Origin: an uncultured virus (IMG/VR IMGVR_UViG_2645728028_000003)
Lineage: Duplodnaviria; Heunggongvirae; Uroviricota; Caudoviricetes
DNA length: 64,000 bases
Reading direction: 5' to 3' (one strand)
Virus record (IMG/VR): IMGVR_UViG_2645728028_000003
Span: 1 to 64,000 of that record
Shown: positions 7,459 to 33,964 of the stretch, in pieces
Layout: each line of letters begins with the position of its first letter
Numbering within the stretch: the first letter of the stretch is position 1
The notes under the pieces: model-generated
Database searches by the model: none
Told to the model about the DNA's origin: nothing
The model's input: only the letters and a program-made list of their open reading frames with translations
Position numbers and translations under genes: made by a program

Positions 7459-7647
7459 ATCGCCTTTATTCCATAAACGGGCCATTATATTAAATAAGGG
7501 TTGCATAAACCCCAGTTTTTTACAGCTTTCTGGCTTCCGAAGAAGCCAAAAACGTTGATACATCAACGATGTATAAAATCGTGAATATACAAGTAAAAAG
7601 GAACAAAGTTCAAACCTTTGGTAAATAAGGATTTCGCCTTTTGGTGT

Positions 7648-7675
7648 ACTCCCGAAAGTTGCGATTATGATAATT
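7648..7675 (+). other. Degenerate dif-like Xer site
   Basis: ACTCCCGAAAG-TTGCGA-TTATGATAATT; upstream flank homologous to those of the 31063 and 53953 sites. Confidence 0.55.
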
Positions 7676-7899
7676 AGGTTTGTATAGAGTATGCAGCGGT
7701 CTATTGGGGATCTTGTTCAACTTCAAGGGATGATTTTGATTTAGACGAAAATATTTACTTTTCTTGAATTTCTAGTATCCAAAATTAATTTTAAGGAGAC
7801 TAGAAAAGCACATAAATTCAAAATAGGTATCTGCCCAATCAAAATGGGTTAATTCACCATAACTTATGAATGTATGACTTTTAGGAAATGGAGGTATTT

Positions 7900-9270
7900 A
7901 TGAATATGTATAGACAGTCTATACCGTATAATAACAATTACCATGGTTGGCTACGACCAACATCACAATACGAAAATTATTTTAGGGAAACTCGAGCTCC
8001 AATAGCTGGTGATTCTAATGTTCCAGGTGTTGCGGCAGTTTACGGCAATAATACGAATGGTGGTACAGGTGTAGCCGGGAAAAGTATAAGTGGCTGGGGT
8101 ACTTCGGGCCATAGTGACACGAGCACGGGAGTAGTTGGAGTAAGTAAAAGCGGTTGGGGTACTTCGGGCGAGAGTGTAACGAACACGGGAGTAGTGGGAA
8201 TGAGTAAAAGTGGCTGGGGTGTATCCGGCCATAGTGACACGAGCACAGGAGTAGTGGGAATAAGTAAAAGTGGCTGGGGTACTTCGGGCGAGAGTACAAC
8301 GAACACGGGAGTAGTGGGAATGAGTAAAAGTGGCTGGGGTGTATCCGGTAAAAGTGGCTGGGGTACTTCGGGCGAGAGTATAACGAACACGGGAGTAGTG
8401 GGAATGAGTAAAAGTGGCTGGGGTGTATCCGGCCATAGTGACACGAACACAGGAGTAGTGGGAATAAGTAAAAGTGGCTGGGGTACTTCGGGCGAGAGTA
8501 CAACGAACACGGGAGTAGTGGGAATGAGTAAAAGTGGCTGGGGTGTATCCGGCCATGGTGACACGAATACAGGAGTAGTGGGAATAAGTAAAAGTGGCTG
8601 GGGTACTTCGGGCGAGAGTATAACGAACACGGGAGTAGTGGGAATGAGTAAAAGTGGCTGGGGTGTATCCGGCCATGGTGACACGAATACAGGAGTAGTG
8701 GGAATGAGTAAAAGTGGCTGGGGTGTATCCGGTCATGGTGACACGAATACAGGAGTAGTGGGAATAAGTAAAAGTGGCTGGGGTACTTCGGGCGAGAGTA
8801 TAACGAACACGGGAGTAGTGGGAATGAGTAAAAGTGGCTGGGGTGTATCCGGCCATGGTGACACGAATACAGGAGTAGTGGGAATAAGTAAAAGTGGCTG
8901 GGGTACTTCGGGCGAGAGTATAACGAACACGGGAGTAGTGGGAATGAGTAAAAGTGGCTGGGGTGTATCCGGCCATAGTGACACGAACATGGGAGTTGCA
9001 GGGATAAGTAGAGATAACATTGGTGTATATGGGAAAGGCGGACGACTCGCAGGTATGTTTGAAGGTAATGTTGACATAACGGGTTCTCTTACTGTTCAGG
9101 GCAAGAACATCAACGAACTTACGGGACTGCAACAGCAAGTCAATAACCTTCAGCAGCAATTATCAAGCATACAACAAAAACACGACGAAGATGTACAGGG
9201 TATCGCAAACAGTTTGTTAACGCTCGCTCAACGGGTCACCGCTTTAGAAAGTCTATCACATTCACATTGA
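7900..9270 (+). CDS. Gly/Ser-rich tandem-repeat (GVxG) protein with C-terminal coiled coil
   Basis: RBS GGAGGT; 16 SGWG motifs in 20-aa units; AGMFEGNVDITG then heptad-like tail. Confidence 0.8.
   Translation: MNMYRQSIPYNNNYHGWLRPTSQYENYFRETRAPIAGDSNVPGVAAVYGNNTNGGTGVAGKSISGWGTSGHSDTSTGVVGVSKSGWGTSGESVTNTGVVGMSKSGWGVSGHSDTSTGVVGISKSGWGTSGESTTNTGVVGMSKSGWGVSGKSGWGTSGESITNTGVVGMSKSGWGVSGHSDTNTGVVGISKSGWGTSGESTTNTGVVGMSKSGWGVSGHGDTNTGVVGISKSGWGTSGESITNTGVVGMSKSGWGVSGHGDTNTGVVGMSKSGWGVSGHGDTNTGVVGISKSGWGTSGESITNTGVVGMSKSGWGVSGHGDTNTGVVGISKSGWGTSGESITNTGVVGMSKSGWGVSGHSDTNMGVAGISRDNIGVYGKGGRLAGMFEGNVDITGSLTVQGKNINELTGLQQQVNNLQQQLSSIQQKHDEDVQGIANSLLTLAQRVTALESLSHSH
8077..9000 (+). repeat. Coding tandem repeat, 60-bp unit with alternating variants
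   Basis: Recurrent AAAAGTGGCTGGGGT every 60 bp; one shortened unit near 8345. Confidence 0.95.
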
Positions 9271-9352
9271 GAACCCCCATCAAATAGATTGCTAGCTGAA
9301 TCTGCATACGACAAACAAGAATGTATATAAATCGTCTTTAATTTTTAAAGAT

Positions 9353-9381
9353 AATGCCGATAATATCTGATTATGTTAAAT
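9353..9381 (+). other. dif-like Xer site (7-bp spacer)
   Basis: AATGCCGATAA-TATCTGA-TTATGTTAAAT; right arm is a canonical XerD arm. Confidence 0.7.
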
Positions 9382-9543
9382 AAACATATTCAGGAATACG
9401 ATAATCTTATTCTTTAATCGGAAGTGAAAACAGAAGATCATTATGCTATGCATTTAATATTATTTGGATATCGAGTTTTCAAGAAAAGGGCACGTTTGTT
9501 TAATACTCTTCTCTTACTACAAATAGAGAGTAAATTAAAGAAG

Positions 9544-9585
9544 AAGGACATTACATATCTTATATAACTAATATGTAATGTCCTT
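9544..9585. terminator. Long inverted repeat / terminator-like hairpin
   Basis: AAGGACATTACATAT / ATATGTAATGTCCTT perfect 15-bp arms. Confidence 0.6.
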
Positions 9586-9623
9586 TTATTTAATATTTTT
9601 TAAATTCAGGTCCTGATAACAAC

Positions 9624-9830
9624 TTATCTCTCATCCATGCTAGGATGGCTCTTTATAAATTTTTGTGAACCATTTTCGATTGTGATACTCACTCCGTCGC
9701 GATCAATCACTTTATCACATTCTGCATCTAATTCATGCAAACGAATTAAATCATTTACTTTTTTTACTTCCAGCAAATCTTCGGTATCAACACGTGCTAA
9801 TAATTGATTTTTTAACTCATCAAATTTCAT
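9624..9830 (-). pseudogene. terS: P27-family terminase small subunit, truncated
   Basis: IENGSQKFIKSHPSM; homologous to 1312-1635; no terL follows. Confidence 0.75.
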
Positions 9831-9897
9831 ACTACCCCTCCCCCCTTATCACCCCTAATGTGAAAGGCTAATTTTTATATATTTTCAGAGAGTTAAG

Positions 9898-9950
9898 CCC
9901 CCTCCCCGGTGCCCCATTTGGAAAAAAGTCCAAAATTTTCGACCGGGGGG
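9898..9950. other. Putative cos packaging region, second copy
   Basis: Matches 1687-1739; lies between HNH and terS. Confidence 0.55.
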
Positions 9951-10019
9951 TTGTTACAGAAAATTTTTTTATTTTTTCTACCACTTTTCATCATGCTGCC
10001 ATTTGTTCTGCTTCTTTTT

Positions 10020-10298
10020 TTAAAAGTCTCGACCGTGTTCTTTGTTGTGACAATCGACACAAACAGTCTCCAGGTTATCTTCATCAAGCGCTAACTCCGG
10101 ATGATGCTCGAGCTCCTTGATGTGGTGAACTACTAGCTGGATCTTCTTGCGCTTGACACTCTCGCTGTATTCATTCGTATCGATGGATACTCGCCCTTGC
10201 CGTTTACATTCTTTGCATTCATAGTTGTCACGCATATGCTTCCATTCCCCACTGTCATAGAACTTACGCTTTTGTTTACTGGTCTTATTCTCTTTCAT
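10020..10298 (-). CDS. Phage HNH endonuclease (probably degenerate C-terminus)
   Basis: CKEC, VHHIKE, NLETVCVDCHNKEH. Confidence 0.85.
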   Translation of the reverse strand: MKENKTSKQKRKFYDSGEWKHMRDNYECKECKRQGRVSIDTNEYSESVKRKKIQLVVHHIKELEHHPELALDEDNLETVCVDCHNKEHGRDF

Positions 10299-10408
10299 AT
10301 TCCTCCTAATAAAAAAAGCACTCCCAAAGGAATACTTTTATCAGTAAATATCTTTATATTTTTGTATAACATGTATTTATGGATATCTTTAGTAACTCAA
10401 GCTATTAA

Positions 10409-11323
10409 TTAGATTTTTAATTTTTCACCATCTAGAAAAACAGCTTTAGGTCTAACACGTCGAACCCTTCTCTCTTCCATGTAATAAGTTAAATCGCTAA
10501 TTTTGTTAAGAATATTTTCTAATTGGTTTGCTCTTAACGCTTCTTCCGAATTTAGATTTGAGATAAGTTCATTTGCAATAATAATTCCATCTCTCGAAAG
10601 CGAATTTAATTCTTTAATTGCACCTAATGGTATAGGTTCACTTCTTTGAATTACATCACTTAAATATTGAGGAGGTAATAATTCAGTTGGCGATCTTAAC
10701 AATTTTTGTTGATTACGAGCAAGTTCAAGTAGTTCCTCTAAAATCTCACTGGTATATGGATTTGTTTCACTGGCCTCAGTTTTTTGCACCTCAACAACTT
10801 CTTCTGCATCAAGCAACGCATCTAGGTCTTCCTTTAAGGATGGCCACCAGACCTCAAAAACTTTATCTAGTCTTACCTGTTCAAGTGCATCACTTTGTAG
10901 AGACTTATTGATACTTTCAACTAATTTCTTTACATCATCTTTTGTATAGATTGTTGATTGGAATTGTAGAGTTGGACCAGTTACTTCTGATCTCTTTAAA
11001 TTAAATAAGAATGGCGACACCCGAGATTTTTCAACCTGCTTTGAAAGTGCTCCTGCCTCAAAGTTAATCCAAGGAGCCTTAATATTTTCTTTAGTTAAAA
11101 TAATAATCCCATAGTTCGAATTATTTAATTCACCTGCAATATCGCTACTCCATCTTGTACCCTTATCAATGTCCTCAGATGATACGTAAGGTTCTACCGA
11201 TTGAATAACTGATGGTATCCAATCCCTTAATATTAATGCAACATTTCTACTTAAATCCCCAGACCAACTTAAAAAAACTTTCATTTTCTTTATTTCACTC
11301 CATTTATCTAAAATAATACTCAC
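10409..11323 (-). CDS. TIR-domain protein
   Basis: KVFLSWSG...DIDKGTRW...WINFEAGA (TIR_2 boxes with the catalytic Glu); helical C-terminus. Confidence 0.85.
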   Translation of the reverse strand: MSIILDKWSEIKKMKVFLSWSGDLSRNVALILRDWIPSVIQSVEPYVSSEDIDKGTRWSSDIAGELNNSNYGIIILTKENIKAPWINFEAGALSKQVEKSRVSPFLFNLKRSEVTGPTLQFQSTIYTKDDVKKLVESINKSLQSDALEQVRLDKVFEVWWPSLKEDLDALLDAEEVVEVQKTEASETNPYTSEILEELLELARNQQKLLRSPTELLPPQYLSDVIQRSEPIPLGAIKELNSLSRDGIIIANELISNLNSEEALRANQLENILNKISDLTYYMEERRVRRVRPKAVFLDGEKLKI

Positions 11324-11750
11324 CTCCTAATATTCGACACAAAAAAAACAATCCCTTTTTCCTATTTATATTTTTTAATGCTTCCTCAGGTATTCTACTA
11401 ACTAAAATATTATTCATTTTCTTAAAAAAGACCTGTCTGTCAACGGTATATCTTTCACCTTTAAAGCACTAATGTTATTATTTTTGCAATTATTCAATAT
11501 TATTACCTCTTCCCCAGTGCCAGATTCACATTTTTATAAGTATCACGCCTGGTACCCATGATATCTTCCCAGTCTCTTCGACTAAGATCCTCTTAGTTTC
11601 CTGTATTAGGTTTTTCTCTCTGATTCTCCGCAAACCTACGCAGCTGGTTAAACTGCTGAATCTGTGCTTTTGATAAATGATCAGCGAACTTCATATTGAC
11701 CACCCACTTTCCCAAATAAAAAAGCACCCATAATTATGGATGCTGGTTGA

Positions 11751-12263
11751 TTAAGTAAATAACACTATTGGCATTTCTGAAGATCTTCTATTTTTATAAA
11801 ACTTTTCTAATTCACTTTGACTTAAAGAGTTTTTCTTATTATCTTGTTTAAAATTAATAGCATTTGCATTAGCCCGCACATAAATTTGCTCTATGCCTTC
11901 CTGAATAGCATAATATTTGAGCTTCTCTATATAATAACTAGCTATACCTATTTTTCTTAATGATTCGTCATGTACATACAATAATTCTAAATTTATTTCC
12001 TTTTTGTCTCTTTTTAATTCTTCCATAATTCTTTGGTTTCTTTTATAGAAATCCATTGAAAACAGAACTTTTTCATTTCTTTTGTAATAAAGACAAAATT
12101 TTACATTTCCATCTTCGCAATGATATCCTCGTTCCTTTGTATTAAGAAGTCCTTTGTCATCAAATTTAAAGACAATATAATCTTCATTCTCTTTAATACA
12201 ATCAGGTAGACCCCAGTTTATAATCATATTTTCCATTGTTTTATTATTTTGTTTTTCACTCAT
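11751..12263 (-). CDS. GNAT-family acetyltransferase
   Basis: LYVHDESLRKIGIAS (motif A) and LEKFY; RBS before 12263. Confidence 0.7.
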   Translation of the reverse strand: MSEKQNNKTMENMIINWGLPDCIKENEDYIVFKFDDKGLLNTKERGYHCEDGNVKFCLYYKRNEKVLFSMDFYKRNQRIMEELKRDKKEINLELLYVHDESLRKIGIASYYIEKLKYYAIQEGIEQIYVRANANAINFKQDNKKNSLSQSELEKFYKNRRSSEMPIVLFT

Positions 12264-12395
12264 TGTCTTCCTCCTTCGATACTCATTGTTCATCTTATTC
12301 GAGATAAGGACTGGTTTCCCTCTTTTGACAAAAAAGACAACACTTCGAACCTAAGCGCAGTCATGAAATATTCTACATTTTCATAAAGAAATATT

Positions 12396-13133
12396 TTATT
12401 GTTCTTCATTTCTTTTCGAAAATTTAGTTACAAAATAAGAGACAAAAAAACCTATAATTATTACATTAAATACAAAGCCAATAATGTATTCACATAATAA
12501 TATCAATGTGATTGGCTGTTCTAATATTATGCCACTGGAAGGAAATGAATAAAACGGTATCAATCCTTTGTATATAATGAATAGGTAAGTGGTGAGACTT
12601 GAGTTAGAATGAAACATAATTTTATTATATTCTTCTAAAGTATAAAGATTAAAAACATCATTATACTCCAAGTAAAACAATCCAAAACCAATGCCAGCTA
12701 CGCATAAAATTAATCCATAACCAAAAATAAAATTTAATAATTGGAAAATCATATTGTTAAAGTTTTTCAGTGCATTGGTAATTAAAATAACTGAAAATAT
12801 AATGATAAATATTGTTAATACTATTAAAAAGCGAAAATTTAATGGGTTTTCTAGGTATACATTTAAAAAACCCAAGGTAAAAGTAATTAATAATAGGACT
12901 CTAAATAACCAATTTAGAAAGTTAATGAAACTATTATTAGAAGAATAAGTAAAAATCTTTCCAAGACCAATCAAAAATATTAAAAATAATATCAAATTAA
13001 TAAAACCTGGAATTTTACTCTCAATAGGTGTCTCAACAATTACCACTATAAATGACACAGTGAGTATAAAAATTGCAGTTGAAATTTCTTTTTTATTCTT
13101 AAGCAATAAAACTCTAGGAAACACATTTTCCAA
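12396..13133 (-). CDS. Polytopic membrane protein
   Basis: Very AT-rich ORF with about 7 hydrophobic segments. Confidence 0.65.
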   Translation of the reverse strand: MENVFPRVLLLKNKKEISTAIFILTVSFIVVIVETPIESKIPGFINLILFLIFLIGLGKIFTYSSNNSFINFLNWLFRVLLLITFTLGFLNVYLENPLNFRFLIVLTIFIIIFSVILITNALKNFNNMIFQLLNFIFGYGLILCVAGIGFGLFYLEYNDVFNLYTLEEYNKIMFHSNSSLTTYLFIIYKGLIPFYSFPSSGIILEQPITLILLCEYIIGFVFNVIIIGFFVSYFVTKFSKRNEEQ

Positions 13134-13157
13134 TTTTAAATTTAACGAGGAATTTTT

Positions 13158-13307
13158 TTAAAAATTACTAATCCATTCTCTTTTTTCAAGGTAGTTTATA
13201 GACCTTTTGAAATGAGCATACGATTTTTTTGTCCAAACAAATAAAGTGTATGAAAGTGAAATTGTAGCTAAAATCAAAATAACAAAAGCAATGATTTTCT
13301 GAATCAT
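13158..13307 (-). CDS. Small single-TM protein
   Basis: RBS GGAGGTG before MIQKII. Confidence 0.4.
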   Translation of the reverse strand: MIQKIIAFVILILATISLSYTLFVWTKKSYAHFKRSINYLEKREWISNF

Positions 13308-13826
13308 GAGAAAACACCTCCCAGATTTTAAATTTTTATAGTTTTTTATACGATTATATAAGGCAAAAGTTCCGTAGTATAAAATATAAAGAACCATTTA
13401 TATAATCTAATTAGAATACTGATTCAAAAAAATTTCCTTTATCTATTAAAATCTTTCTATTACTATAACCCATTTCATTATCATTTTTGAATACTTGATC
13501 TCTTTGATCTATAATCATTCTGGCATGCTGTTTGCCTTCTCAGCATGCATATAAGGTAATCTTTCTAACTCCTATCTGCATGCACTTCATTTTACTGAAA
13601 ATATCGTATCCTTGCGCTTCTCTCCATACACAAAGAGCCTCCATCGCTGGACGCTTTTCTATTCATTAATTAGCCTTCTATTCTTGCTTTTTCATTTGCA
13701 AGAAAATTTCTTTAATATTATCTTTAGCACTTTTGCATAAAATGAAGGAAAAATAATTTTTAGTGTATTTGGATTAGAATACATAATTTGCATAAAAAAA
13801 GCACCCTTGAAAGGATGCTCCTAAAA

Positions 13827-14042
13827 CTAATCTACGATTTTAATAGTCTTGCCATCTTCTTGAACTACTAATGATTTATTACAGGATACATTAATATCCC
13901 CTGCCACAATTTCAAATTTAAGAATAGTACCATCATTAAATTCAGTAACAGACACAACTTTTTCAGGAGTGTGTTCAAGAACCTCAAAACTTGTGCGTTC
14001 TCTTCCTTCAAGATCAATATTCATTTCTGCCAAATTACTCAC
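13827..14042 (-). CDS. Hypothetical protein
   Basis: RBS GAGGAG, GTG start; flanked by related terminators. Confidence 0.55.
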   Translation of the reverse strand: MSNLAEMNIDLEGRERTSFEVLEHTPEKVVSVTEFNDGTILKFEIVAGDINVSCNKSLVVQEDGKTIKIVD

Positions 14043-14152
14043 CTCCTCTCACCCACAATTATGAGCAAAAGGCACTAGATGGACAAACACTATCGTTCGT
14101 CAAATTATGACAAATTCCCAAAATAAAAAGCACCCTCGAAAGGATGCTCTAG

Positions 14153-14992
14153 CTAGGATATATATTCTACAAAAGAAGGAATACATAGCATTCCTTTCTT
14201 TGTGTAATTTCTAAACTTTACACGACATTTAATCTTTGGATCAACATGTATGAACTTTTTATCTTCTTCTATTATTAGATCCTGGAACTGCTTATAGAAT
14301 TGTTTTCTTCCGGCAGGAGAAACAAATTCCATAATTCCAGCCGGTTTAATGCGGTTAATTTCTTCAATTCCAAGCAACAACCAGAATTCATCTTTTCTGA
14401 GGCCTGTAATAAATACATCAGCATATTGATAATTTATTACCTTTAACCAATTCTGAGAGCGTTTATTAATTTGATATTTAGATGCTGCTCTTTTAAGGAC
14501 AATTCCCTCTAGGTCATGCTGCTTAACTATATCAAAATAAGCTTCACCTTTACCAAGCATCCACTGGACCTTTGCAAAGTATTGATCATTGTGGATCAAG
14601 CTTTCAAGAATATCTTTTCTTTCTATTAAAGGAAGATGCGTAATCTTTTCTCCTTTATAATAAATAATATCAAACACACAGAACTGAATATGGTGATTAG
14701 ATCTTTTGGATTGAAACCTTTCCATCATTGCCTCAAAGTCAGGCTTCCCATCCTTATCAGTGACTATTATTTCTCCATCCAAAACTGTTCCATCTGGAAT
14801 ATCTATGTGTAGCAATTCAGGAAACTTAGAAGTCACCTCATTATTATGCCTTGTATATAATTTAATCTGATTATTAAACTTAGACAGGATTAATCGAATG
14901 CCATCTAGTTTTAATTCAGTAATAAACTCTTTATCTTCAAATGGCTGCTCAGATTTATGAAGCAGCATTGGTGAAACAAACACTTTTACCAC
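14153..14992 (-). CDS. ATP-dependent DNA ligase (phage LigB/YoqV-like)
   Basis: Motif I ELKLDGIR, LDGEI, VFDI, EGIVLK, WLKV. Confidence 0.9.
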   Translation of the reverse strand: MVKVFVSPMLLHKSEQPFEDKEFITELKLDGIRLILSKFNNQIKLYTRHNNEVTSKFPELLHIDIPDGTVLDGEIIVTDKDGKPDFEAMMERFQSKRSNHHIQFCVFDIIYYKGEKITHLPLIERKDILESLIHNDQYFAKVQWMLGKGEAYFDIVKQHDLEGIVLKRAASKYQINKRSQNWLKVINYQYADVFITGLRKDEFWLLLGIEEINRIKPAGIMEFVSPAGRKQFYKQFQDLIIEEDKKFIHVDPKIKCRVKFRNYTKKGMLCIPSFVEYIS

Positions 14993-15113
14993 CTCTGAAA
15001 TATCATACCATGGTAAACTCTTATTTTCTTATAACAAGAAACATGTAAGTTATCCCTGAAAAACCAATATAAAAAGCATCCCCGAGGATGCCTTTTCCTA
15101 GAAAAGTTTTGTT

Positions 15114-24157: not shown

Positions 24158-24160
24158 TTT

Positions 24161-25922: not shown

Positions 25923-28490
25923 TTAGTCTTTATCCTCAATAAACTCTGTAACTGATTTCGTATCTAATTGAGGATATTCTTCTACATTTTTGTTTAGAAC
26001 CCTTCTGAACAATATATCTACAGCACCTATATCAATTACTTCCTTAGTAAATAATTTAATTAACTCTTTACTAAAAATTGTTCTTGAATTTGCGATATGT
26101 TCATAGTTTTTTCTATACATATGATACAAATATAATAATGTATCAACAGTCAAAAAGATTGGTCTTGCATTTGACTCATCATTTAATTTCTCATAAAAGT
26201 GCTGTTTCATAGTTTCAAATTGCACTTCTTTAAACCTGTTTGAGATAAATACGTGACCAGAAAGTTCCTGGTTATCACTATAATTCTGGATAATGTCATT
26301 ATCATTCAATAGTTCGATATAATCTACCGCTTTCCTTTGTTCCTCTTTTTTAAGATTGTATCCTTCATCACTTCTAGTGAACTTACAGTCATATGAAAAT
26401 ACTCTTCTTTTTTCTTGTTTTAACTTACCCTTTTCAATATAAGAGATAGCAAAGATCCCTTCGGGTACAGGTTTCCCGCTCATTTCTTTTCCCCATTTCT
26501 CAGAATTGGGGAATAGGTCTTTCAATATAGCATAAATGTCATCTTCAAATTTCTTATCTGTATATTTTTTATCTACCTTTGATGGAGGTGTTTTTAATTG
26601 ACCCAATGATTCCTCAGCAATACTTGCTGCATTATGCACAAAAGATTTTTGACGAAGTTTGAGTTTCTCAATTATTTGTGAATAAAAATCACCGAACATA
26701 TGTTCATCAGTTACATATAGATTACCAAAAGTTACTGCTTGTATGCAATCACTATTATAAGATTCAAGATTCTTTTCTAATTGACCTACAAAGACAATTA
26801 TAGTTGGTGTCATCATTGTTTTTAATCTGTTTAGGTCTTTGTAGGGTATACTTTGATCCGATAACAATATTTGAATGATCTCATTATTCTCTAAACTTTC
26901 TAACTTATAGAATTTGTATTGGGTATCATCAAAAATAATTTTCGGTTCGTATGTTGCTAAGGAGAAATTGGACAATCCTTTTAAAGATTTTCTAATTAAT
27001 GACCTTATTACTGTTAAATCAGATTTCATTTCAGTTATTTCCTTGAACTTTAAATCACGGTTACCGCAATCCGGGCACTCATCAGGGGTTTCGTCAGTAA
27101 TTTCTTTCTCTAATTTACAAACTATACAATAAAAATTCTGCTTTTTTACTTCAATTATTAATTTATTTTTAATTAACTCTGATAGGATTTTTTTACCATG
27201 CTCATCTAATGACTTGGTCTGTGGTGTACCTAACAAATAATCTATCTTATCTGCTTTACCAGCTGTATATTTTCCATTTGCTATTTCTTGGTTTAAAGGA
27301 ATTCCAAATTTCTTTATAAATTTTTCAACAATCAACTGTTTCTTTGCTTCTTCTAAACGACTGTCATCCATAGTAAACAAAACATTTCCATTATCACGAA
27401 CAATCGATCGTACGATTCTACTTTTACTAGACGACTTTATTGACAAACTCTCGATATCCTTTAAGCTTTCTAAGTCAATGCATTTATTTATATGTGCATA
27501 TTTAACAGATGGCCAAATATCCTCATTTTCGAGTTCTAAAGTTACTTTTGGTGAATTTTTAATTGGACTTTCCCTGAAAACTATTTTATTTACTACAAAA
27601 TCCTCAACCTTCTCTTCTCCAGGTAATGACCCTTGAATAAATGCGTTTTTTACATCTTCACTATTATATTTTTCAAATACCTTAAGCTGGATAGGTGACG
27701 GATTACAATCCGGGAAATTATTATTAAAATATTTAATTAAGGCCTTCTTATCTGTTAGAGTTGTACTCTTTATTTCTAATGTTCTCTCTTTTGCATTAAC
27801 AGAGAACATTAGTGGTACAACTTCTTTATTTCTAACAGCTTTATCAAAATCCGCTCTTGGAGCATCATTTACCTGCTTATATAAAATAACAGTAACTGTT
27901 TGGTCTAATATTAAATATGAAAATACTCGAAACTTCTGTTTTTGTCCAGACTCTCTAAATAATTCATCAATAAGTATATTTCTATATGAACTTGGTATTT
28001 TTTGTGCTTCATCTAATGTAATACCTTTCTCATATGTATACAAATCTCCAGTGGACTTAATATCCCAAGAATATAAAGTATATAATTCAATCATTGATAA
28101 GCTAGTGTTAGAAATTAAATGTTTTAATTTAGTTAAGCTTGAAGATGCAAATTGCTCTTGTGCATTTGACATTTTCAACTTATAAAATTTATTGATTGTT
28201 TGTTTACGCCTATTTTCATAGTCATGAAGTATTAATATTTCTCGTTTATCATCTTCTGGTAGACCTAATAATAAAGTTACTAATTCAGTTTTACTTTCTG
28301 CAGAATCTAAGCCATATAAAACTGCTAGTTCCTTTAAGACACTTACTGTTTTGTTTTCTAATAATCTCTTAACCCTATTACTAATTAATGGACCTTCTAA
28401 TTCCAAAATGGGATCAATTGAGACACCAATTTCTCTCCAAAACCTTTCATCAGGTTTTGTATTGTCTTTATAATCAAAATTTAGCGACAC
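25923..28490 (-). CDS. 855-aa protein with Zn ribbon and putative C-terminal restriction-endonuclease-like domain
   Basis: CIVC/CPDC; KFEDD...PEG...YDCK resembles the E..PD-(D/E)xK arrangement; very AT-rich. Confidence 0.7.
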   Translation of the reverse strand: MSLNFDYKDNTKPDERFWREIGVSIDPILELEGPLISNRVKRLLENKTVSVLKELAVLYGLDSAESKTELVTLLLGLPEDDKREILILHDYENRRKQTINKFYKLKMSNAQEQFASSSLTKLKHLISNTSLSMIELYTLYSWDIKSTGDLYTYEKGITLDEAQKIPSSYRNILIDELFRESGQKQKFRVFSYLILDQTVTVILYKQVNDAPRADFDKAVRNKEVVPLMFSVNAKERTLEIKSTTLTDKKALIKYFNNNFPDCNPSPIQLKVFEKYNSEDVKNAFIQGSLPGEEKVEDFVVNKIVFRESPIKNSPKVTLELENEDIWPSVKYAHINKCIDLESLKDIESLSIKSSSKSRIVRSIVRDNGNVLFTMDDSRLEEAKKQLIVEKFIKKFGIPLNQEIANGKYTAGKADKIDYLLGTPQTKSLDEHGKKILSELIKNKLIIEVKKQNFYCIVCKLEKEITDETPDECPDCGNRDLKFKEITEMKSDLTVIRSLIRKSLKGLSNFSLATYEPKIIFDDTQYKFYKLESLENNEIIQILLSDQSIPYKDLNRLKTMMTPTIIVFVGQLEKNLESYNSDCIQAVTFGNLYVTDEHMFGDFYSQIIEKLKLRQKSFVHNAASIAEESLGQLKTPPSKVDKKYTDKKFEDDIYAILKDLFPNSEKWGKEMSGKPVPEGIFAISYIEKGKLKQEKRRVFSYDCKFTRSDEGYNLKKEEQRKAVDYIELLNDNDIIQNYSDNQELSGHVFISNRFKEVQFETMKQHFYEKLNDESNARPIFLTVDTLLYLYHMYRKNYEHIANSRTIFSKELIKLFTKEVIDIGAVDILFRRVLNKNVEEYPQLDTKSVTEFIEDKD

Positions 28491-28712
28491 TAGATACCAC
28501 CCTTTTACATTTTATTCTAATTGTCGTTCTTTTTTTTTTCTAAATCAAGACCTTTATGAGTTGTTTCCCCAAAACATTTCCATATTAATAAGTCATAAGT
28601 TGTAAGTTATAAATTATAACAATTTCATAACTGGACTGAGACTAATCTTTATTAATTAAGAATTCACAAAACAGACACAAGGACTTTTTCCCTATTGTAG
28701 CTAATTATTGCA

Positions 28713-28946
28713 TTGGGAGGGATAAAGTTGAAGAGCAAAAATAATATTAAACCGCATTGTCATGTTTGCATGGAAGAATTTATGATGGGTGTTGATGTTG
28801 TGATGGACGGTACCTTTAAAGGGATCATTCATGCAGATTGTAACTATCTACCGCCAGATGAGATTGAAGATCGGGGGAAATTTGAGGATGTTGTCATGAG
28901 GAACCAAAGGTGGTTTAACCAATTTAATCATGTTATTATGCACTGA
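28713..28946 (+). CDS. Small Zn-finger-like protein
   Basis: CHVC...HADC; followed by a terminator. Confidence 0.55.
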   Translation: MGGIKLKSKNNIKPHCHVCMEEFMMGVDVVMDGTFKGIIHADCNYLPPDEIEDRGKFEDVVMRNQRWFNQFNHVIMH

Positions 28947-28983
28947 AATAGAAGCCCCTCTCGATTTCAAGAAGGGCTTTCTC

Positions 28984-29018
28984 CTTATTGAACAAAAGGG
29001 GCAGGTTAGTAAAATAAC
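28984..29018. repeat. R-type imperfect palindrome
   Basis: CTTATTGAACAAAAGGGGCAGGTTAGTAAAATAAC; relatives at 7465, 9477, 29612, 33660 and 33783/35561. Confidence 0.6.
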
Positions 29019-29088
29019 ATTTTGGATTTGGAGGAAATTGGTAACTCCTTGTCGAATAATCACCCTATAAATTTTAGGGGGAAGCAAA

Positions 29089-29502
29089 ATGAACTATACA
29101 ATTGTAGAAGATTTTAATGAAAGCCTATTAGAGGAGTTGCAAAGCTTATTCCAAAAAGAATGGTGGACACAAAAGCGACAATTACCTGACATTAGGGAAA
29201 TGATTTCAAACAGCGGCATAGTAATTGGCATTATCAACAATGACACATCGGAGTTACTGGGATTTGGAAGAGCAATAACCGACTCTCAGTATAGAGCATT
29301 TATTTTTGATGTCATTGTTAAAGAACAGTATCGCAGTACAGGTCTCGGTAAATTATTATTAGAATCGATATTATCTCACCCTAGAATAGTTAATGTTGAC
29401 CGAGTTGAACTTTACTGTCCAGAGAGGCTAGTTCCTTATTATGAAAAGTTTGCCTTTTCCACAGAAGTTAACGGGAGTCAATTAATGAGATTAAAAGGGT
29501 AA
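29089..29502 (+). CDS. GNAT-family acetyltransferase
   Basis: LLGFGRAITD...IFDVIVKEQYRSTGLGK...YYEKFAF. Confidence 0.9.
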   Translation: MNYTIVEDFNESLLEELQSLFQKEWWTQKRQLPDIREMISNSGIVIGIINNDTSELLGFGRAITDSQYRAFIFDVIVKEQYRSTGLGKLLLESILSHPRIVNVDRVELYCPERLVPYYEKFAFSTEVNGSQLMRLKG

Positions 29503-29688
29503 TACAAAGTAGGCTGAGAATAAGTTCAGGCGGATAATAATGCTCTTTTTTTTCGGTTAATACTAACTGATAAGGTTCCTTATTGTGAAGAAATGGCGTA
29601 ATAAAAGAGGACTTAAACAAACGAGTGCGTTAATTGAAAACAGCAGCCTATAATAAAGCCCCTCTCGAACTGAGAAGGGCTTTTGCAT

Positions 29689-30231
29689 TTATTTCAGGAA
29701 CTCTCCAACAGCCGTAGCCGTTTCAAATCTATCTGCACCAGATAACAGAGTAACTTTGTCTGCTACTATGCCATCTTTAGTGCCCCCTACAACATACAGT
29801 TCTTTTGCTACTTTCTTCCCTTTAACCGTTGAACGCAGATAAATTGGAGCTTTGAGGTTCAATGCAAGCCTCTCAGCTGCAGGGAAATCAGCAAACCCAT
29901 TGATTACAATTGCTTTTCCTAACATATCATCTTCCTCCTTTGGTTTTTGTACTGGTTTAGGTTTAGGGGCCGGCTTTGGTTTCGGTTTTTCAAGAGGTTT
30001 TAACAAATCCATATCCGCCGTTCCTGTTGTCCGGTTATCTTCGTGTTTTATATATTCCTCCGTCGCACCCTCTACCCATCCATTCTCTGTCCACCGTGGT
30101 TTATACAACAAAGGCGGGACGGGTTCTTTTATTAGGTTTGCTTCCAAGACATCCGTATCCTTAACGGCAACGGTATCAACAATGAAGCCATTTTCATCAA
30201 TCAGTTTAGCTTCGATAAACAAATGATTCAC
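29689..30231 (-). pseudogene. Chimera of a 37513-37848 paralogue and an endolysin C-terminus
   Basis: N-terminal part matches 37614-37848; C-terminal part matches the end of 35631-36509. Confidence 0.8.
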
Positions 30232-30237
30232 CTCTTT

Positions 30238-30361
30238 TTAATTGGCATACAAGAAATAAATACCGTCAAGAGATAGCCAATTACCGGAAACCGTTGCGGT
30301 TACTTTTCCATCGGGTGCAATGGTTATTCTGGATGTCCCCACGGAAGAATTGGACCATGTG
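30238..30361 (-). pseudogene. Orphan copy of the tail protein C-terminus
   Basis: TWSNSSVGTSRITIAPDGK...IYFLYAN, identical in protein to the end of 37855-41103. Confidence 0.85.
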
Positions 30362-30562
30362 TATATCTCTCCAAAACAGCTAATTACTTTGCGGATCATA
30401 GCAGCTACCCTGTCACTATGCCTAGGGATGAGGGGCAACATTATTACGAATTATCTTTTTTCTATTTCTTTTAAATTACAATAAAACGCTGCTACAAGAA
30501 TCTATACTGATTTGTTGAACAAGCATAAGATAAATTGAATCTAATTTTAAAGGAGGAACAAT

Positions 30563-30910
30563 ATGGGAAAAGATAGAAATCGTGTTATTAATGTCACTCT
30601 CCTCGCGTGGGTCCCGAGCACGGGCGCGTTGACCTTCTTCTTTGAAGGTGGTTTTACGACGGCGAGAGTCTTGTCGACGACAACCACGCGGCGTGCGCAG
30701 CTCAATCGGTTCCTTCCCGGAGATCCGATCTTCCCCCTTGTAACGCGTTGGAACGCACTCATCTCGTCGGGGCGGACGACCTTCGGTCAAACGAATACCG
30801 ACAACCCAAACACCTTTAGCGGGATCACAAACCAGCTCGTGTCCTTAAACGCGCGTATGCGAATCCAGCTCCGGAGTGGGATCTTGGTCGCCCTTCGCCC
30901 CATTCCTTAG
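30563..30910 (+). CDS. Hypothetical protein, GC-rich
   Basis: RBS AAAGGAGG; composition differs from flanks. Confidence 0.65.
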   Translation: MGKDRNRVINVTLLAWVPSTGALTFFFEGGFTTARVLSTTTTRRAQLNRFLPGDPIFPLVTRWNALISSGRTTFGQTNTDNPNTFSGITNQLVSLNARMRIQLRSGILVALRPIP

Positions 30911-31062
30911 TCGCAATTAAAATCCCACTTTTTTATTCAGCTGTCAGGCTTCTTAAGAAGCTAGAAACGTTGATAAATCAATCATGTATAAAATCATGCA
31001 TAATCAATAAAAAATGAACAAGAGCCAAACCCTTAATACTACTGGGTTTGGCTTTTTGGCTT

Positions 31063-31090
31063 ACTTCTTAAAATTGACATTATGTTCGTG
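31063..31090 (+). other. Degenerate dif-like Xer site
   Basis: ACTTCTTAAAA-TTGACA-TTATGTTCGTG; upstream flank 30947-31062 homologous to 7531-7647. Confidence 0.55.
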
Positions 31091-31211
31091 TATAGGGTAT
31101 ACATCGAATTATTAGTACTAGATATAAAACCTTCACAGTATATTGATAATGTATATTTTTTTTCAAATATAGGTTTCAGAAAAATATGACTTAAGGAGGA
31201 GGAAACTATAT

Positions 31212-32159
31212 ATGGCTCTGATACGAGGTGAATCTTCAAATCCGAACGAACCGGCAGTTCTCGGTACAAGCAATGCTCCAGATCAGGGAATGGGGGTAAT
31301 GGGAACAGCTACACGTGGGTCCGGCGTAATCGGAACGAGCGTCGACTGGATTGGCGTGTATGGAGAGAGCAATAATTATGAGGGTGTGCGAGGTACATCC
31401 AAGAACAAGGACCATGCAGGGGTCGTGGGTACCAATGAAGCGGGAGGAAGTGCCTTTTATGGTGAGGGCTCCGCTGGGCTCATTGCAGTCGGAAAGCAAT
31501 GGGTCGGTGTCTATGGCGAGACCCAAGCCCAACCAGGTGTTGGGTCCGCGGGGGTCTGGGGTGATGGAAAAAACGGGGGTGACGGTGTCAAGGGGCATGC
31601 GAGCGCACCAGGGAAATCGGCGGTGGCCGGAATCCACCTCACAAATCAAGGCCCAGGCATCCGCGGTAAGGGTTCTCCCGCTGGTTTTTTCGAGGGCGAT
31701 GTCCATGTTACTGGTAATATCAGAGCCAATGGTGACATCATTCTCTCAAATGCAGATTGTGCTGAAGACTTTGATGTATTCGAGGCTGATACAATCGAAC
31801 CTGGGACTGTTATGATTTTTGGTGAAGGGGATTCGTTACTACAAAGTCAGTATGCATACGATAAACGAGTTGTAGGTGTGATCTCTGGCGCAGGCAATTA
31901 CAAGCCTGGTATTATTTTAGATAAACAGCAATCACTGATAAACAGAAAACCAGTTGCTCTGATGGGAAAAGTATATTGTAAAGTAGATGCAGGCTACGCA
32001 CCAATTAAGGTAGGAGACTTACTTACCACATCTGACACCCCGGGACATGCGATGAAGGCAACGGATCCTTTGAAAGCCTTTGGCACAGTTATTGGCAAGG
32101 CAATGCACCCATTGAAAGAAGGCCAAGGGTTAATCCCAATCCTGGTTGCCTTACAGTAA
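31212..32159 (+). CDS. GVxG-repeat protein with C-terminal intramolecular-chaperone-like (peptidase G2 IMC-like) domain
   Basis: GVYGES repeats; ADCAEDF..EPGTVM..VVGVIS..VALMGKVYCKV..IKVGDLLTTS..GHAMK. Confidence 0.75.
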   Translation: MALIRGESSNPNEPAVLGTSNAPDQGMGVMGTATRGSGVIGTSVDWIGVYGESNNYEGVRGTSKNKDHAGVVGTNEAGGSAFYGEGSAGLIAVGKQWVGVYGETQAQPGVGSAGVWGDGKNGGDGVKGHASAPGKSAVAGIHLTNQGPGIRGKGSPAGFFEGDVHVTGNIRANGDIILSNADCAEDFDVFEADTIEPGTVMIFGEGDSLLQSQYAYDKRVVGVISGAGNYKPGIILDKQQSLINRKPVALMGKVYCKVDAGYAPIKVGDLLTTSDTPGHAMKATDPLKAFGTVIGKAMHPLKEGQGLIPILVALQ

Positions 32160-32175
32160 AAGGAGGGAAAGAGCT

Positions 32176-33312
32176 ATGAGTACGAAATTTCGCTGGGCTG
32201 TGCTCCTTTGCAATTGCCAGGGCACCTCTACCAATCAGACGGCCCAGCAATTCTTCGTCAACCTGTTCACGCCAGGACTAGGAGGAGCCATCGATTACTG
32301 GAGCGATATGTCGTTCGGTGAACTGGATCTAACAAACTCGTCTGTCTTTAGTTGGGTGACTTTGTCGATTACGACGGCGCAGGCACTCAACACACGTAGA
32401 AGCGATGCTATTAACATGGGTATCGATGCCCATAAGGCGGCAGGACATGACCTTCGTGGCTTTGACCAGATTCTAGTTTATATTGACGTTCCGTTTATTG
32501 GTCAGAACATAACGGAGGGTGGACAGCAAGGCGCTGGGTCAGCTCAGGGACGAGTGCTGACTGATCAGGGCGTGATGCGTTCCGACTTCATCATGCATGA
32601 GATGGGGCATGGCCACGGGCTGAAGGATGAATCGTATGACATAATGGGGAACGCCTACGGGGACCCGTACTGCATCATGAGCGCCATGTCATACGGCGGT
32701 ACGGACCCCACGTTCATGGACCCGCGCTTCGGCCCTTCAGGTCCATCTTTATGCTCTCCGTACATTTTTTCTAAAAATTGGCTACCACAACAAAACACGG
32801 TTCTTATAGAGAGTAACGGCAAATGGCCGAAGACAACCCATCTAACATTGAGTCCGTTCGAAAGAGGCACAACAGGAAGTCCCCAGGTGGCGATCATTCG
32901 CTTCACGCATCCCTTTACGACAAGCTATTTCATCGACTATCACCAAGCAGCTGGTTGGGATCGGGGTCTTTCGCAAGATGCTGTGGTCATACGCCAGTAT
33001 AGGCCGGACGGAAAATCATACTACGCTGGAAGGATTGCAACATCAGTCGCACATGTAGGTGGAGTAGTACTGCTCCCCGAGGGGGGTTATCTTGATAAGC
33101 AGTTTGATCTTTCTGTCGATACTACCCGCGTACTAGCAGACGGTCGGGTTGAGCTCACGATTGCTCCTGCAGCAGCACTGCAGACGCTAAGTGTACGAAC
33201 TGTAGCGCGCAATAAGCTGGGGCTTAACAGTGGGTTCTCTATACGAGGTAGCATCATGCGACCGGGGACGAACTCACTTCGCTGGAGTCTTGTCGAGATC
33301 CTTGGCGACTGA
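32176..33312 (+). CDS. Metzincin-type zinc metalloprotease (M6/M11-like)
   Basis: HEMGHGHGL, YGDPYCIMS Met-turn, DYWSDMSFG. Confidence 0.75.
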   Translation: MSTKFRWAVLLCNCQGTSTNQTAQQFFVNLFTPGLGGAIDYWSDMSFGELDLTNSSVFSWVTLSITTAQALNTRRSDAINMGIDAHKAAGHDLRGFDQILVYIDVPFIGQNITEGGQQGAGSAQGRVLTDQGVMRSDFIMHEMGHGHGLKDESYDIMGNAYGDPYCIMSAMSYGGTDPTFMDPRFGPSGPSLCSPYIFSKNWLPQQNTVLIESNGKWPKTTHLTLSPFERGTTGSPQVAIIRFTHPFTTSYFIDYHQAAGWDRGLSQDAVVIRQYRPDGKSYYAGRIATSVAHVGGVVLLPEGGYLDKQFDLSVDTTRVLADGRVELTIAPAAALQTLSVRTVARNKLGLNSGFSIRGSIMRPGTNSLRWSLVEILGD

Positions 33313-33465
33313 CACACGCTACGGGAAGGCGGAGCAGATATTCATGAAATCCCTGCTCTACACCGGAAGGTGCCTAGGTGGAGGGATTCCACCGCCTCCG
33401 CGTAAACAAAAACACCCTTCAGACCTTATTCTGAAGGGTGTTTTTAGAGAATGTTAGATAGATTG

Positions 33466-33494
33466 ACTACTGATAATCCTTAGTTATGTCAACA
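33466..33494 (+). other. dif-like Xer site (7-bp spacer)
   Basis: ACTACTGATAA-TCCTTAG-TTATGTCAACA. Confidence 0.6.
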
Positions 33495-33534
33495 AAAATA
33501 GGTTGCGTACCTTTTGGATAATCAACCTGTTTTA

Positions 33535-33563
33535 ATTACCTATAACACTCAATTATGTTAACT
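33535..33563 (+). other. dif-like Xer site (7-bp spacer)
   Basis: ATTACCTATAA-CACTCAA-TTATGTTAACT; downstream ~130 bp homologous to 9382-9505. Confidence 0.7.
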
Positions 33564-33964
33564 AAACATAATCAGGAATACGATAATCTTATTCCTCAAA
33601 CCGGGAGCAAAAACAGAAGATTGTAATGTTATGCCTTTAATATTATCTTGATATCGAGTCTTCAAGAAAAGGGCGCTTTTCTTTAATAAGAAGGCGTCTT
33701 TTTGTATTGAGTAAGATTCTAGAAAAATATATTTATGGGATTGGATTATGTTAAAGTATAAAAGAGATTGTGAAGGTTTCTACTTAAACTCCCTCAGTTT
33801 AATACGATTATCTTCCGAATACTCGCTTATTCGCAGGATTTCATCCACCTAGGATTACATTTAATTGAATGTAAGGAGTAGATTCTGGACATTTGGCTAC
33901 GTGAAGGCATAGTTAAATAGAGGAGTAGGATTATACTCCATATTTTACCATGTGATGTACTTCT

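What the first reader, a model, noticed from the sequence alone, without database searches (positions are those of the whole stretch)
7531..33690. Cargo cassettes bracketed by directly repeated dif-like Xer sites with conserved accessory flanks
Seen: two loci share the layout [~115-bp conserved flank]-dif(6-bp spacer)-cargo-dif(7-bp spacer)-[~130-bp conserved flank]. They are 7648/9353 around the repeat gene and 31063/33466+33535 around the repeat-protein + protease pair. All sites have the same orientation. Known: pdif modules and IMEX exploit host XerCD in Proteobacteria, and cer/psi sites need accessory DNA. Inference: a Bacillus Xer (RipX/CodV)-driven cassette exchange system inside prophages; I know of no description of it.
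Basis: partly seen in the sequence, partly recalled or inferred. Interest (0 to 1): 0.85.

Follow-up and report, generated by a model that had tools for sequence, protein, structure and literature searches.

The report
Xer-site gene cassettes in Bacillaceae
Two gene cassettes in this soil-bacillus genome sit between look-alikes of the chromosome-unlinking site dif, and they belong to a widespread family of such cassette rows on plasmids, prophages and chromosomes that I did not find in print.

Summary
Both loci have the layout conserved 5' flank, dif-like core, cargo, dif-like core, conserved 3' flank, all on the + strand.

The 5' flank with its core is one copy of a roughly 230-bp module. The module occurs 13 times in this genome, in 67 of 269 genomes of the family, and on Priestia, Peribacillus and Bacillus plasmids.

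The downstream cores rank among the 17 best dif-like positions of the genome. The upstream core at 7648 is marginal. The one at 31063 is decayed, with a truncated right arm.

Two near-identical Priestia plasmids differ by one 1605-bp cassette. The break lies inside the 6-bp spacer of such sites. None of five small plasmids with site rows encodes a tyrosine recombinase, while this host has XerC and XerD.

I read the system as host-Xer-driven gain and loss of single cassettes at a docking module with cer/psi-like accessory DNA.

Three limits apply. No empty site or alternative cargo was found for the window's own flanks. The 3' flank is private to this genome. Xer action is inferred, not shown.

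Seven literature searches found only Acinetobacter dif modules, whose sites are inverted.

The parts
7479..7702 (+). Docking module 1. It holds inverted repeats at 7532-7547 (GGCTTC..GAAGCC) and 7553-7568 (CGTTGAT..TCAACG), a TGTATAAAAT box at 7570-7579, a hairpin with T-run at about 7611-7642, the core, and the palindrome box TGTATAGAGTATGCA at 7681-7695.
   Evidence: nhmmer profile of 16 outside modules, E 8.9e-38; alignment of 24 modules; sequence.
7648..7675 (+). Upstream core of locus 1: left arm 7648-7658, 6-bp spacer 7659-7664, right arm 7665-7675.
   Evidence: 16.0 bits; 36 genome positions score as high, 18 in a shuffled genome. Marginal alone, but in register with the family.
7888..9270 (+). 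Cargo 1: a 460-aa glycine-rich repeat protein with 15 copies of a 60-nt unit. It matches no Pfam, PHROG or NCBIfam family.
   Evidence: only weak fibre-like leads.
9353..9381 (+). Downstream core of locus 1: left arm 9353-9363, 7-bp spacer 9364-9370, right arm 9371-9381.
   Evidence: 24.1 bits; within the 12 best positions of the genome.
9382..9505 (+). 3' flank, copy 1. It begins by completing a short palindrome with the right arm.
   Evidence: 85% identical to 33564-33688; found nowhere else.
30918..31107 (+). Docking module 2.
   Evidence: nhmmer E 4.9e-40.
31063..31090 (+). Decayed upstream core of locus 2. The left arm 31063-31073 is good. The right arm is truncated by about 7 bp and runs into the palindrome box at 31089-31103.
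   Evidence: 8.4 bits, not significant alone; alignment.
31212..32159 (+). Cargo 2a: a 315-aa repeat protein with a C-terminal domain, in a very large unannotated family.
   Evidence: 7301 hits among the 8000 candidates scored; best is 73% to a Nitrospira MAG protein. 0 of 268 other family genomes. Fibre-like leads.
32176..33312 (+). Cargo 2b: a 378-aa HExxH metalloprotease-like protein. The ORF is open from 32146.
   Evidence: weak M6-domain hit at 30 bits, below the cut-off; found in no other genome of 401 sampled from the order.
33408..33445 (+). GC hairpin with T-run ending cassette 2, just before the next core.
   Evidence: sequence; same hairpin-before-left-arm pattern as elsewhere in the family.
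33466..33494 (+). First downstream core of locus 2, 7-bp spacer.
   Evidence: 20.6 bits; within the 17 best positions.
33535..33563 (+). Second downstream core of locus 2, 7-bp spacer, start 69 bp after the start of the first.
   Evidence: 27.7 bits; within the 8 best positions.
33564..33688 (+). 3' flank, copy 2.
53878..54008 (+). Partial docking module 3 with a good core (53953-53980) and no cassette. It lies between the portal and large-terminase genes of the intact prophage.
   Evidence: nhmmer E 2.4e-8; 22.1 bits. A related prophage in G268 has only about 24 bp there, and one in G253 has about 690 bp with other ORFs and no sites.

Best explanation
The two loci are members of a family of Xer-type gene-cassette rows found in this bacterial family.

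A roughly 230-bp docking module consists of about 170 bp of conserved inverted repeats, a hairpin with a T-run, a dif-like core (11-bp left arm, 6-7-bp centre, 11-bp right arm) and a 15-bp palindrome. Behind it lie one or more cassettes. Each cassette starts with its own palindrome box and ends with a terminator and a further core in the same orientation.

I propose that the host's own XerC/XerD (CodV/RipX) recombine two directly repeated cores. This cuts a cassette out as a circle carrying one core, and the reverse reaction inserts such a circle at a core. The upstream DNA would play the part that accessory sequences play at cer and psi.

In the window, two foreign or fast-evolving cargo units were captured behind two copies of the module: a fibre-like repeat protein, and a repeat protein plus metalloprotease. 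Locus 2 is now probably fixed, because its upstream core has lost part of the right arm. Locus 1 has a weak upstream core.

Shown: the anatomy, family membership, non-random cores, cassette presence/absence at the spacer in relatives, lack of plasmid-borne recombinases, and presence of host XerC/XerD. Inferred: that Xer is the enzyme, that the flank is accessory DNA, and that the window's cassettes arrived this way.
For: 1. The module is a family. A profile from 16 outside copies finds 13 copies in this genome at E < 1e-7, three of them in the window. A BLAST query with one module finds 67 of 269 family genomes in 14 of 25 genera and 18 plasmid records, with one place in each of the 18.

2. 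The cores resemble the true chromosomal dif. That site lies at the GC-skew maximum and scores 31.0 bits on the same matrix. At 22 bits or more there are 15 real positions against 0 shuffled. By my comparison of the site lists, nearly all other top positions sit in modules or rows.

3. Rows run in direct orientation. The 108-kb plasmid-like contig has 3 + 3 sites in two rows. Seven small plasmids have 2-5 sites each against 0.07-0.25 in shuffles; five of the seven have all sites on one strand. Further rows occur in G087 and G227.

4. Cassette turnover at the core. pPmC-142-7 (9026 bp) equals pPmC-129-13 (7421 bp) plus 1605 bp lying between two cores. The single site of the shorter plasmid has the left arm of the first core, the right arm of the second, and a spacer made of the first 3 nt of one and the last 3 nt of the other. 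The same cassette sits in a different backbone in the same strain. Shikimate-kinase and Mn-catalase cassettes recur on 132-kb and 95-kb plasmids, with a family core at their downstream end; upstream an IS3 element adjoins.

5. No tyrosine recombinase is encoded on 0 of 5 small carrier plasmids (six-frame PF00589 search). The host has XerD (416 bits, cut-off 329.6) and XerC (367 bits, cut-off 335).

6. Cargo 2 looks foreign. Its GC is 50-60% against about 33% in the flanks and 40.5% genome-wide. It is found in 0 of 268 other family genomes.

7. The flanks are 74-85% identical while the cargo DNA is unalignable.

8. The hairpin next to the left arm keeps its pairing through double changes in 3 of 6 predicted pairs.

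9. Established knowledge. CodV binds the left half of Bacillus dif and RipX the right half, and neither SftA nor SpoIIIE directly activates them (PMC5357621, passages read). cer/psi need about 180 bp of accessory DNA, and DNA between direct dif sites is excised (PMC9113270, passages read).
Against: - No empty site and no alternative cargo were found between the window's own flanks: genus, plasmids and phages, genome and metagenome pattern scans.
- The prophage relative in G024 diverges completely after the upstream gene.
- The upstream cores are weak (7648) or decayed (31063).
- Paired cores differ in spacer length (6 against 7) and sequence. In Acinetobacter, recombination is reported between sites with matching spacers (PMC13141974, passages read).
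- The two cargo proteins are distant homologues (34% over 169 aa), so a duplicated locus with a fast-evolving gene is not excluded.
- The 3' flank has no relatives, so it cannot be called accessory DNA.
- The direction of the Priestia event (gain or loss) is unknown, and homologous recombination within the 28-bp repeat could also delete.
- No binding, cleavage or circle was tested.
- The earlier scan note on similar plasmid sites is marked 'part of it fell'; which part is not told.
Confidence: 0.62

Rival explanations
1. The module is only a plasmid multimer-resolution site, a cer/psi counterpart of bacilli. The window's copies are relics of integrated plasmid-like or phage DNA. The extra cores and their cargo are by-products of past integrations, with no cassette exchange as a working system.
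For: The module occurs once per plasmid in 18 of 18 records, on replicons of 7.9 to 188 kb. Nine of the 13 modules in this genome have no second strong core within 9 kb. Module 1 lies beside a replication-initiator gene and an FtsK-like gene. The window's upstream cores are decayed.
Against: Rows of 2-5 co-oriented cores bracket whole transcription units. A single cassette is present or absent between near-identical plasmids. The same cassette sits in two backbones of one strain. Cassettes recur on unrelated large plasmids.
Confidence: 0.18
2. The cores are used by a dedicated, still unidentified recombinase encoded elsewhere in the host or on a helper element. It would be a Xer-like tyrosine recombinase of large plasmids or prophages rather than the housekeeping XerC/XerD.
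For: The genome gives 19 tyrosine-recombinase matches, one of them on the plasmid-like contig next to a 19-bit site. pSHB26 carries two tyrosine recombinase genes about 6 kb from its module. Left arms fall into two classes that differ from the dif left arm.
Against: The right arm is almost the dif right arm, and the best left arms match dif. Small plasmids with rows carry no recombinase (0 of 5). They occur in several genera, so the enzyme must be common to all hosts.
Confidence: 0.1
3. The conserved flanks are regulatory DNA or homology arms of a paralogous fibre-like gene locus. The cargo was swapped by ordinary homologous recombination or diverged quickly, and the dif-likeness plays no part at these two loci.
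For: The two cargo proteins are homologous. A third paralogue of cargo 1 elsewhere in the chromosome shares its 5' region without any site. The 3' flank is private to the two loci. The upstream cores are poor.
Against: The same module stands before unrelated genes in 67 genomes and on plasmids. The edges of conservation coincide with the cores on both sides. The downstream cores are among the best dif-like positions of the genome. Cargo 2 is compositionally foreign.
Confidence: 0.1

Closest known systems
dif modules bounded by pdif (xrs, pXerC/D) sites on Acinetobacter Rep_3 plasmids
   Same: There are several dif-like 11-6-11 sites per plasmid, and they cut the accessory region into small gene modules. 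Modules are shared between plasmids, no recombinase is carried, and resistance genes are among the cargo: here fosB and arr as annotated in Priestia plasmids.
   Different: In Acinetobacter the sites alternate in orientation (C/D, D/C), so modules are gained or lost in pairs (PMC13141974, passages read). No cis accessory elements were found there, and recombination is FtsK-controlled (PMC11705084, passages read). Here the sites are direct repeats, a single cassette differs between plasmids, and the first site carries about 170 bp of conserved flanking DNA. The hosts are Bacillota.
cer (ColE1) and psi (pSC101) plasmid multimer-resolution sites
   Same: A Xer core with roughly 170-180 bp of conserved DNA on the left-arm (XerC) side. 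There is one module per plasmid (18 of 18). Central regions longer than 6 bp occur.
   Different: There is no sequence likeness. The accessory proteins are unknown; PepA, ArgR and ArcA binding was not testable. The module here is followed by further cores and cassettes, and it also occurs in chromosomes and a prophage.
IMEX (CTXphi, VGJphi, TLCphi, gonococcal genetic island)
   Same: Recombinase-less DNA flanked by directly repeated Xer sites and moved by host XerCD.
   Different: IMEX integrate at the chromosomal dif. The window lies about 0.4 Mb from this genome's dif, and the docking site is a portable module, not dif.
Integrons
   Same: A fixed docking site is followed by a row of co-oriented single-site cassettes.
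   Different: There is no integrase gene beside the rows. The sites are double-stranded dif-like cores rather than folded attC sites. Cassettes have their own terminators.

Membership tests
Xer recombination sites (dif-like, xrs) | Two 11-bp arms of imperfect dyad symmetry around a 6-8-bp central region | tested here: met
   Read at five places in the range and at 53953. The right arm of 31063 is truncated.
Xer recombination sites (dif-like, xrs) | Likeness to the host's own chromosomal dif beyond chance | tested here: met
   The chromosomal dif lies at the skew maximum. On the matrix, at 22 bits or more there are 15 real against 0 shuffled positions; four window cores score 20.6-27.7 bits. 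7648 is marginal and 31063 is not significant.
Xer recombination sites (dif-like, xrs) | Host encodes XerC and XerD | tested here: met
   TIGR02225 at 416 bits and TIGR02224 at 367 bits, both over their cut-offs.
Xer recombination sites (dif-like, xrs) | Crossover inside the central region | tested here: met
   Shown only in relatives. The Priestia plasmid pair has a single site with a chimeric spacer. It is not shown for the window's own sites.
Xer recombination sites (dif-like, xrs) | Binding and cleavage by XerC/XerD | not testable with these tools
   Needs protein-DNA assays.
Acinetobacter-type dif modules | Modules bounded by inversely oriented sites (C and D modules alternate) | tested here: not met
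   All window cores are on the + strand. Five of seven small plasmids have all sites on one strand.
Acinetobacter-type dif modules | Several Xer-like sites per replicon, dividing accessory genes into units shared between plasmids | tested here: met
cer/psi-type resolution sites | About 180 bp of accessory sequence next to the XerC-side arm | tested here: inconclusive
   About 170 bp of conserved inverted repeats lie on the left-arm side in 24 aligned modules. Their role is unknown.
cer/psi-type resolution sites | Dependence on accessory proteins (PepA with ArgR or ArcA) | not testable with these tools
   No binding-site model for Bacillota was at hand.
IMEX | Integration at the chromosomal dif | tested here: not met
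   The window lies at 4.10-4.16 Mb and dif at 3.71 Mb of the same contig.
Integrons | IntI-type integrase gene next to the row | tested here: not met
   No integrase hit among 76 window ORFs. 0 of 5 small plasmids have one.

The most novel reading that the evidence does not exclude
Bacillaceae-type bacteria have a recombinase-free, integron-like gene-capture platform. A portable 230-bp docking module with its own accessory DNA recruits the housekeeping XerC/XerD. These insert and excise single-core cassettes one at a time. The platform works alike on small and large plasmids, chromosomes and prophages, and it carries metabolic, resistance and phage-fibre-like genes.
Probability: 0.45. Interest if true: 0.85.

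Novelty: new variant of a known kind. Interest (0 to 1): 0.7.

Why it matters
Xer-bounded gene modules are known as a route of gene shuffling almost only from Acinetobacter plasmids. There the inverted sites make the mechanism hard to explain.

A Gram-positive counterpart would differ in three ways: direct repeats, single-cassette turnover and a conserved accessory module. That would give a simpler, testable model of how a housekeeping recombinase is turned into a gene-capture system.

It would also explain mosaic accessory regions of Priestia, Peribacillus and Bacillus plasmids, including their annotated resistance cassettes. And it would supply a natural site set for marker-free engineering of bacilli.

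Tried and rejected
- Rfam: no family at gathering score in the window; only chance-level hits on the module.
- Promoter and terminator scans gave no consistent promoter in the flanks. One minus-strand terminator-like hairpin lies at 7568-7553.
- Empty site or other cargo for the window's flanks: not found in 43 genus genomes, plasmids or phages, a genome-collection pattern scan (one chance hit in an unrelated MAG) or two metagenome pattern scans (0 hits).
- The G024 prophage relative has no site after the shared gene.
- Sequencing runs: no RNA holder was listed, and no run held more than 0.11 of the words. Laying four runs covered only the IS110-family element and a short piece near 28.7-29.0 kb.
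- A possible extra core at 7467 on the left edge of module 1 (12.9 bits) has no counterpart in 21 other modules. I dropped it.
- The idea that the module is part of an IS110 end was rejected. The IS spans 33781-35561 and does not include a module.
- The DUF3967 protein as a linked accessory factor: it is annotated near modules in several Priestia plasmids, but the candidate on the plasmid-like contig has no such Pfam hit.
- The cassette row of the plasmid-like contig has no near-identical plasmid for comparison.
- No close phage relatives exist for the portal-terminase junction.
- The orphan gene before module 2 has one homologue only.


Full report
**What is there**

The window is G000 contig 19, 4100431-4164430. 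Two loci share a layout.

Locus 1:
- Conserved 5' flank, then a core at 7648-7675 with a 6-bp spacer.
- A 460-aa glycine-rich repeat gene at 7888-9270.
- A core at 9353-9381 with a 7-bp spacer.
- Conserved 3' flank to 9505.

Locus 2:
- The same 5' flank, then a core at 31063-31090.
- Two genes at 31212-32159 and 32176-33312, then a strong hairpin terminator.
- Two cores at 33466-33494 and 33535-33563, both with 7-bp spacers.
- The same 3' flank to 33688.

The 5' flanks are 74% identical and the 3' flanks 85%. No other DNA of the two loci aligns. All cores lie on the + strand.

**Are the cores more than chance?**

The genome's real dif lies at the GC-skew maximum, at 3.71 Mb. I built a weight matrix from 36 sites of other genomes and plasmids and scored 22.6 million positions.

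- The real dif scores 31.0 bits.
- 33535 scores 27.7, 9353 scores 24.1, 53953 scores 22.1 and 33466 scores 20.6.
- At 20 bits or more there are 17 real positions against 3 in a shuffled genome. At 22 bits or more there are 15 against 0. Four of the 17 lie in this window.
- 7648 scores 16.0 bits and is marginal (36 real positions against 18 shuffled at that level).
- 31063 scores 8.4 bits and is not significant. Its right arm has lost about 7 bp.

The consensus used to collect the outside sites came partly from this genome, so the matrix is not fully independent.

**The 5' flank is a family module**

A profile built only from 16 copies in other genomes and plasmids finds 13 copies in this genome at E < 1e-7. 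These include 7479-7702 (E 8.9e-38), 30918-31107 (E 4.9e-40) and a partial copy at 53878-54008 (E 2.4e-8).

One module used as a BLAST query finds 67 of 269 genomes of the family, in 14 of 25 genera. It also finds 18 plasmid records (Priestia 13, Bacillus 3, Peribacillus 2), with one place per record. It finds no phage record.

The alignment of 24 copies shows, from left to right:
- three conserved inverted repeats
- a TGTATAAAAT box
- a GC hairpin with a T-run directly before the left arm
- the core
- five bases further on, a 15-bp palindrome of the form TGTATA-N3-TATACA

The hairpin changes sequence between copies but keeps its pairing. Three of 6 predicted pairs show changes on both sides. 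The composite right arm plus palindrome occurs in 40 of 269 genomes, against 2 hits in all for the reversed control pattern.

**Rows of cassettes**

The 108-kb plasmid-like contig has an Alp7A-type partition gene and a TrbC-like gene. It carries two rows of three cores each, pointing away from each other. They bracket units of 0.7 to 5.1 kb that encode, among others, an arginase-family enzyme, an MFS transporter, a sigma-54 activator and a TatA protein.

Seven small plasmids of 7.4-10.5 kb hold 2-5 cores each, against 0.07-0.25 in shuffles. In five of the seven, all cores are on one strand.

The cores bracket whole genes as annotated by the depositors. These include an aminotransferase, a shikimate kinase and an HTH protein. 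A fosB gene in a Priestia flexa plasmid is also bracketed. I did not place the arr genes relative to cores.

**Direct evidence of turnover**

Priestia megaterium pPmC-142-7 (9026 bp) and pPmC-129-13 (7421 bp) align at 98-100% over their whole length. The exception is 1605 bp holding the aminotransferase gene, which lies exactly between two cores.

The shorter plasmid has one core at that place. It is made of the left arm of the first core, the right arm of the second, and a spacer whose first three bases match one parent spacer and whose last three match the other. The same spacer is seen at the first site of another plasmid.

The same cassette sits behind the module of a different backbone (RepL, MobV) in the same strain. 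The shikimate-kinase and Mn-catalase cassettes recur on plasmids of 132 and 95 kb, with a family core at their downstream end and an IS3 element upstream.

**Which enzyme?**

None of five small carrier plasmids has a tyrosine-recombinase match in six frames. The window has no integrase among 76 ORFs scanned.

The host has XerD and XerC equivalogs over the curated cut-offs.

From passages of PMC5357621: CodV prefers the left half and RipX the right half of Bacillus dif, and neither SftA nor SpoIIIE directly activates them. Sites away from the terminus could therefore be used.

From passages of PMC9113270: DNA between direct dif sites is excised by Xer, and cer and psi need about 180 bp of accessory DNA.

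Xer action here remains an inference.

**The window's own cassettes**

Cargo 2 looks foreign.
- Its GC is 50-60% against about 33% in the flanks.
- The repeat protein has 7301 hits among the 8000 candidates scored, in many phyla. The best is 73% to a Nitrospira MAG protein.
- It is found in none of 268 other family genomes.
- The metalloprotease-like partner has 30 hits in the protein search (one of them itself) and was found in no other genome of 401 sampled from the order.

The Atlas gives phage-fibre-like leads for cargo 2a: Peptidase_G2, PTL_trimer and Mtd_N, with TM 0.60-0.67 for the rows of these families. It gives only weak leads for cargo 1.

The two repeat proteins are distant homologues: 34% over 169 aa, E 3e-18 without composition correction.

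**What speaks against activity here**

- No empty site or other cargo was found for these flanks.
- The 3' flank exists only at these two loci, so it is not a general accessory element.
- The upstream cores are weak or decayed.
- The paired spacers differ in length and sequence.

I therefore read the two loci as captured cassettes that are now largely fixed.

**Context**

Positions 35.6-64 kb are an intact siphovirus-type prophage on the minus strand. Locus 2 lies between a duplicated remnant of its lysis end and the prophage itself. Locus 1 lies beside a replication-initiator gene, an FtsK-like gene and a YolD-like gene.

Module 3 sits between the portal and large-terminase genes. A related prophage in G268 has about 24 bp there. 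One in G253 has about 690 bp with other ORFs and no site.

**Comparison with what is known**

The closest described system is the dif module of Acinetobacter plasmids.
- There the sites alternate in orientation and modules come and go in pairs (PMC13141974, passages read).
- No cis accessory elements were found there, and FtsK controls the reaction (PMC11705084, passages read).
- Here the sites are direct, one cassette differs between plasmids, and the first site has a conserved 170-bp flank, as at cer and psi.

Seven full-text searches listed no paper on such rows in Bacillaceae. Subscription journals are outside that library.

Two earlier notes of this scan bear on this finding.
- e1-1988223 reported Xer-type sites bounding plasmid cassettes in a Gram-positive soil genus. 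It is marked 'part of it fell', and which part is not told.
- e1-6311789 reported a Xer site between terminase and portal genes in an enterobacterial prophage, a parallel to module 3.

**Verdict**

This is a new variant of a known kind. Interest is 0.7.

Noticed in passing
window 33781-35561: An IS110-family element with a 440-aa DEDD transposase lies about 90 bp after the 3' flank of locus 2. Other copies lie in this genome, one 1.2-2 kb from the chromosomal dif. A different IS110-family gene lies just upstream of a docking module on the plasmid-like contig. Whether this family prefers the neighbourhood of Xer sites is open.
   Followed up: partly
window 31212-33312: The pair of repeat protein and HExxH protease belongs to a very large protein family with no Pfam, PHROG or NCBIfam name. 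There are 7301 hits across many phyla, and some members are fused to crystallin domains. A homologous pair appears to lie on one Bacillus toyonensis contig: both best hits from that species report a longest contig of the same length.
   Followed up: partly
window 30563-30910: A 115-aa gene with a good ribosome-binding site and 58-60% GC lies directly before module 2. It is an orphan with one homologue in 5.8 billion proteins.
   Followed up: partly
window 7964-9127: The cargo 1 gene holds 15 tandem copies of a 60-nt unit (20-aa glycine-rich repeat), with one 84-nt step. A paralogue without the repeats and without sites lies at G000 C19:39681-40322.
   Followed up: partly
window 1687-2036 and 9898-10121: Direct repeats of 84-85% identity bracket about 8 kb. 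That stretch holds the replication-initiator, FtsK-like, repressor-like and YolD-like genes, module 1 and cassette 1. It may be one inserted unit, or two copies of a phage HNH/cos region.
   Followed up: no
window 29625-30296 and 35566-37913: A remnant of the prophage's lysis end (endolysin C-terminus and a tail-fibre piece) is duplicated upstream of locus 2 at 77-91% identity.
   Followed up: no
window 9512-9630: A palindromic terminator-like element after the 3' flank matches other genomes of the genus on both strands, like a small dispersed repeat.
   Followed up: no
window 10409-11323: A 304-aa protein with an N-terminal TIR domain (phrog_13899) lies on the minus strand just beyond locus 1. 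It is a possible defence gene.
   Followed up: no
L025 about 6200-6700 (G000 C20:42203-42702): The middle cassette of the minus-strand row on the plasmid-like contig has no convincing ORF. It matches about 500 bp on Peribacillus, Metabacillus and Paenibacillus plasmids, in one of them under an IS110 transposase annotation.
   Followed up: no
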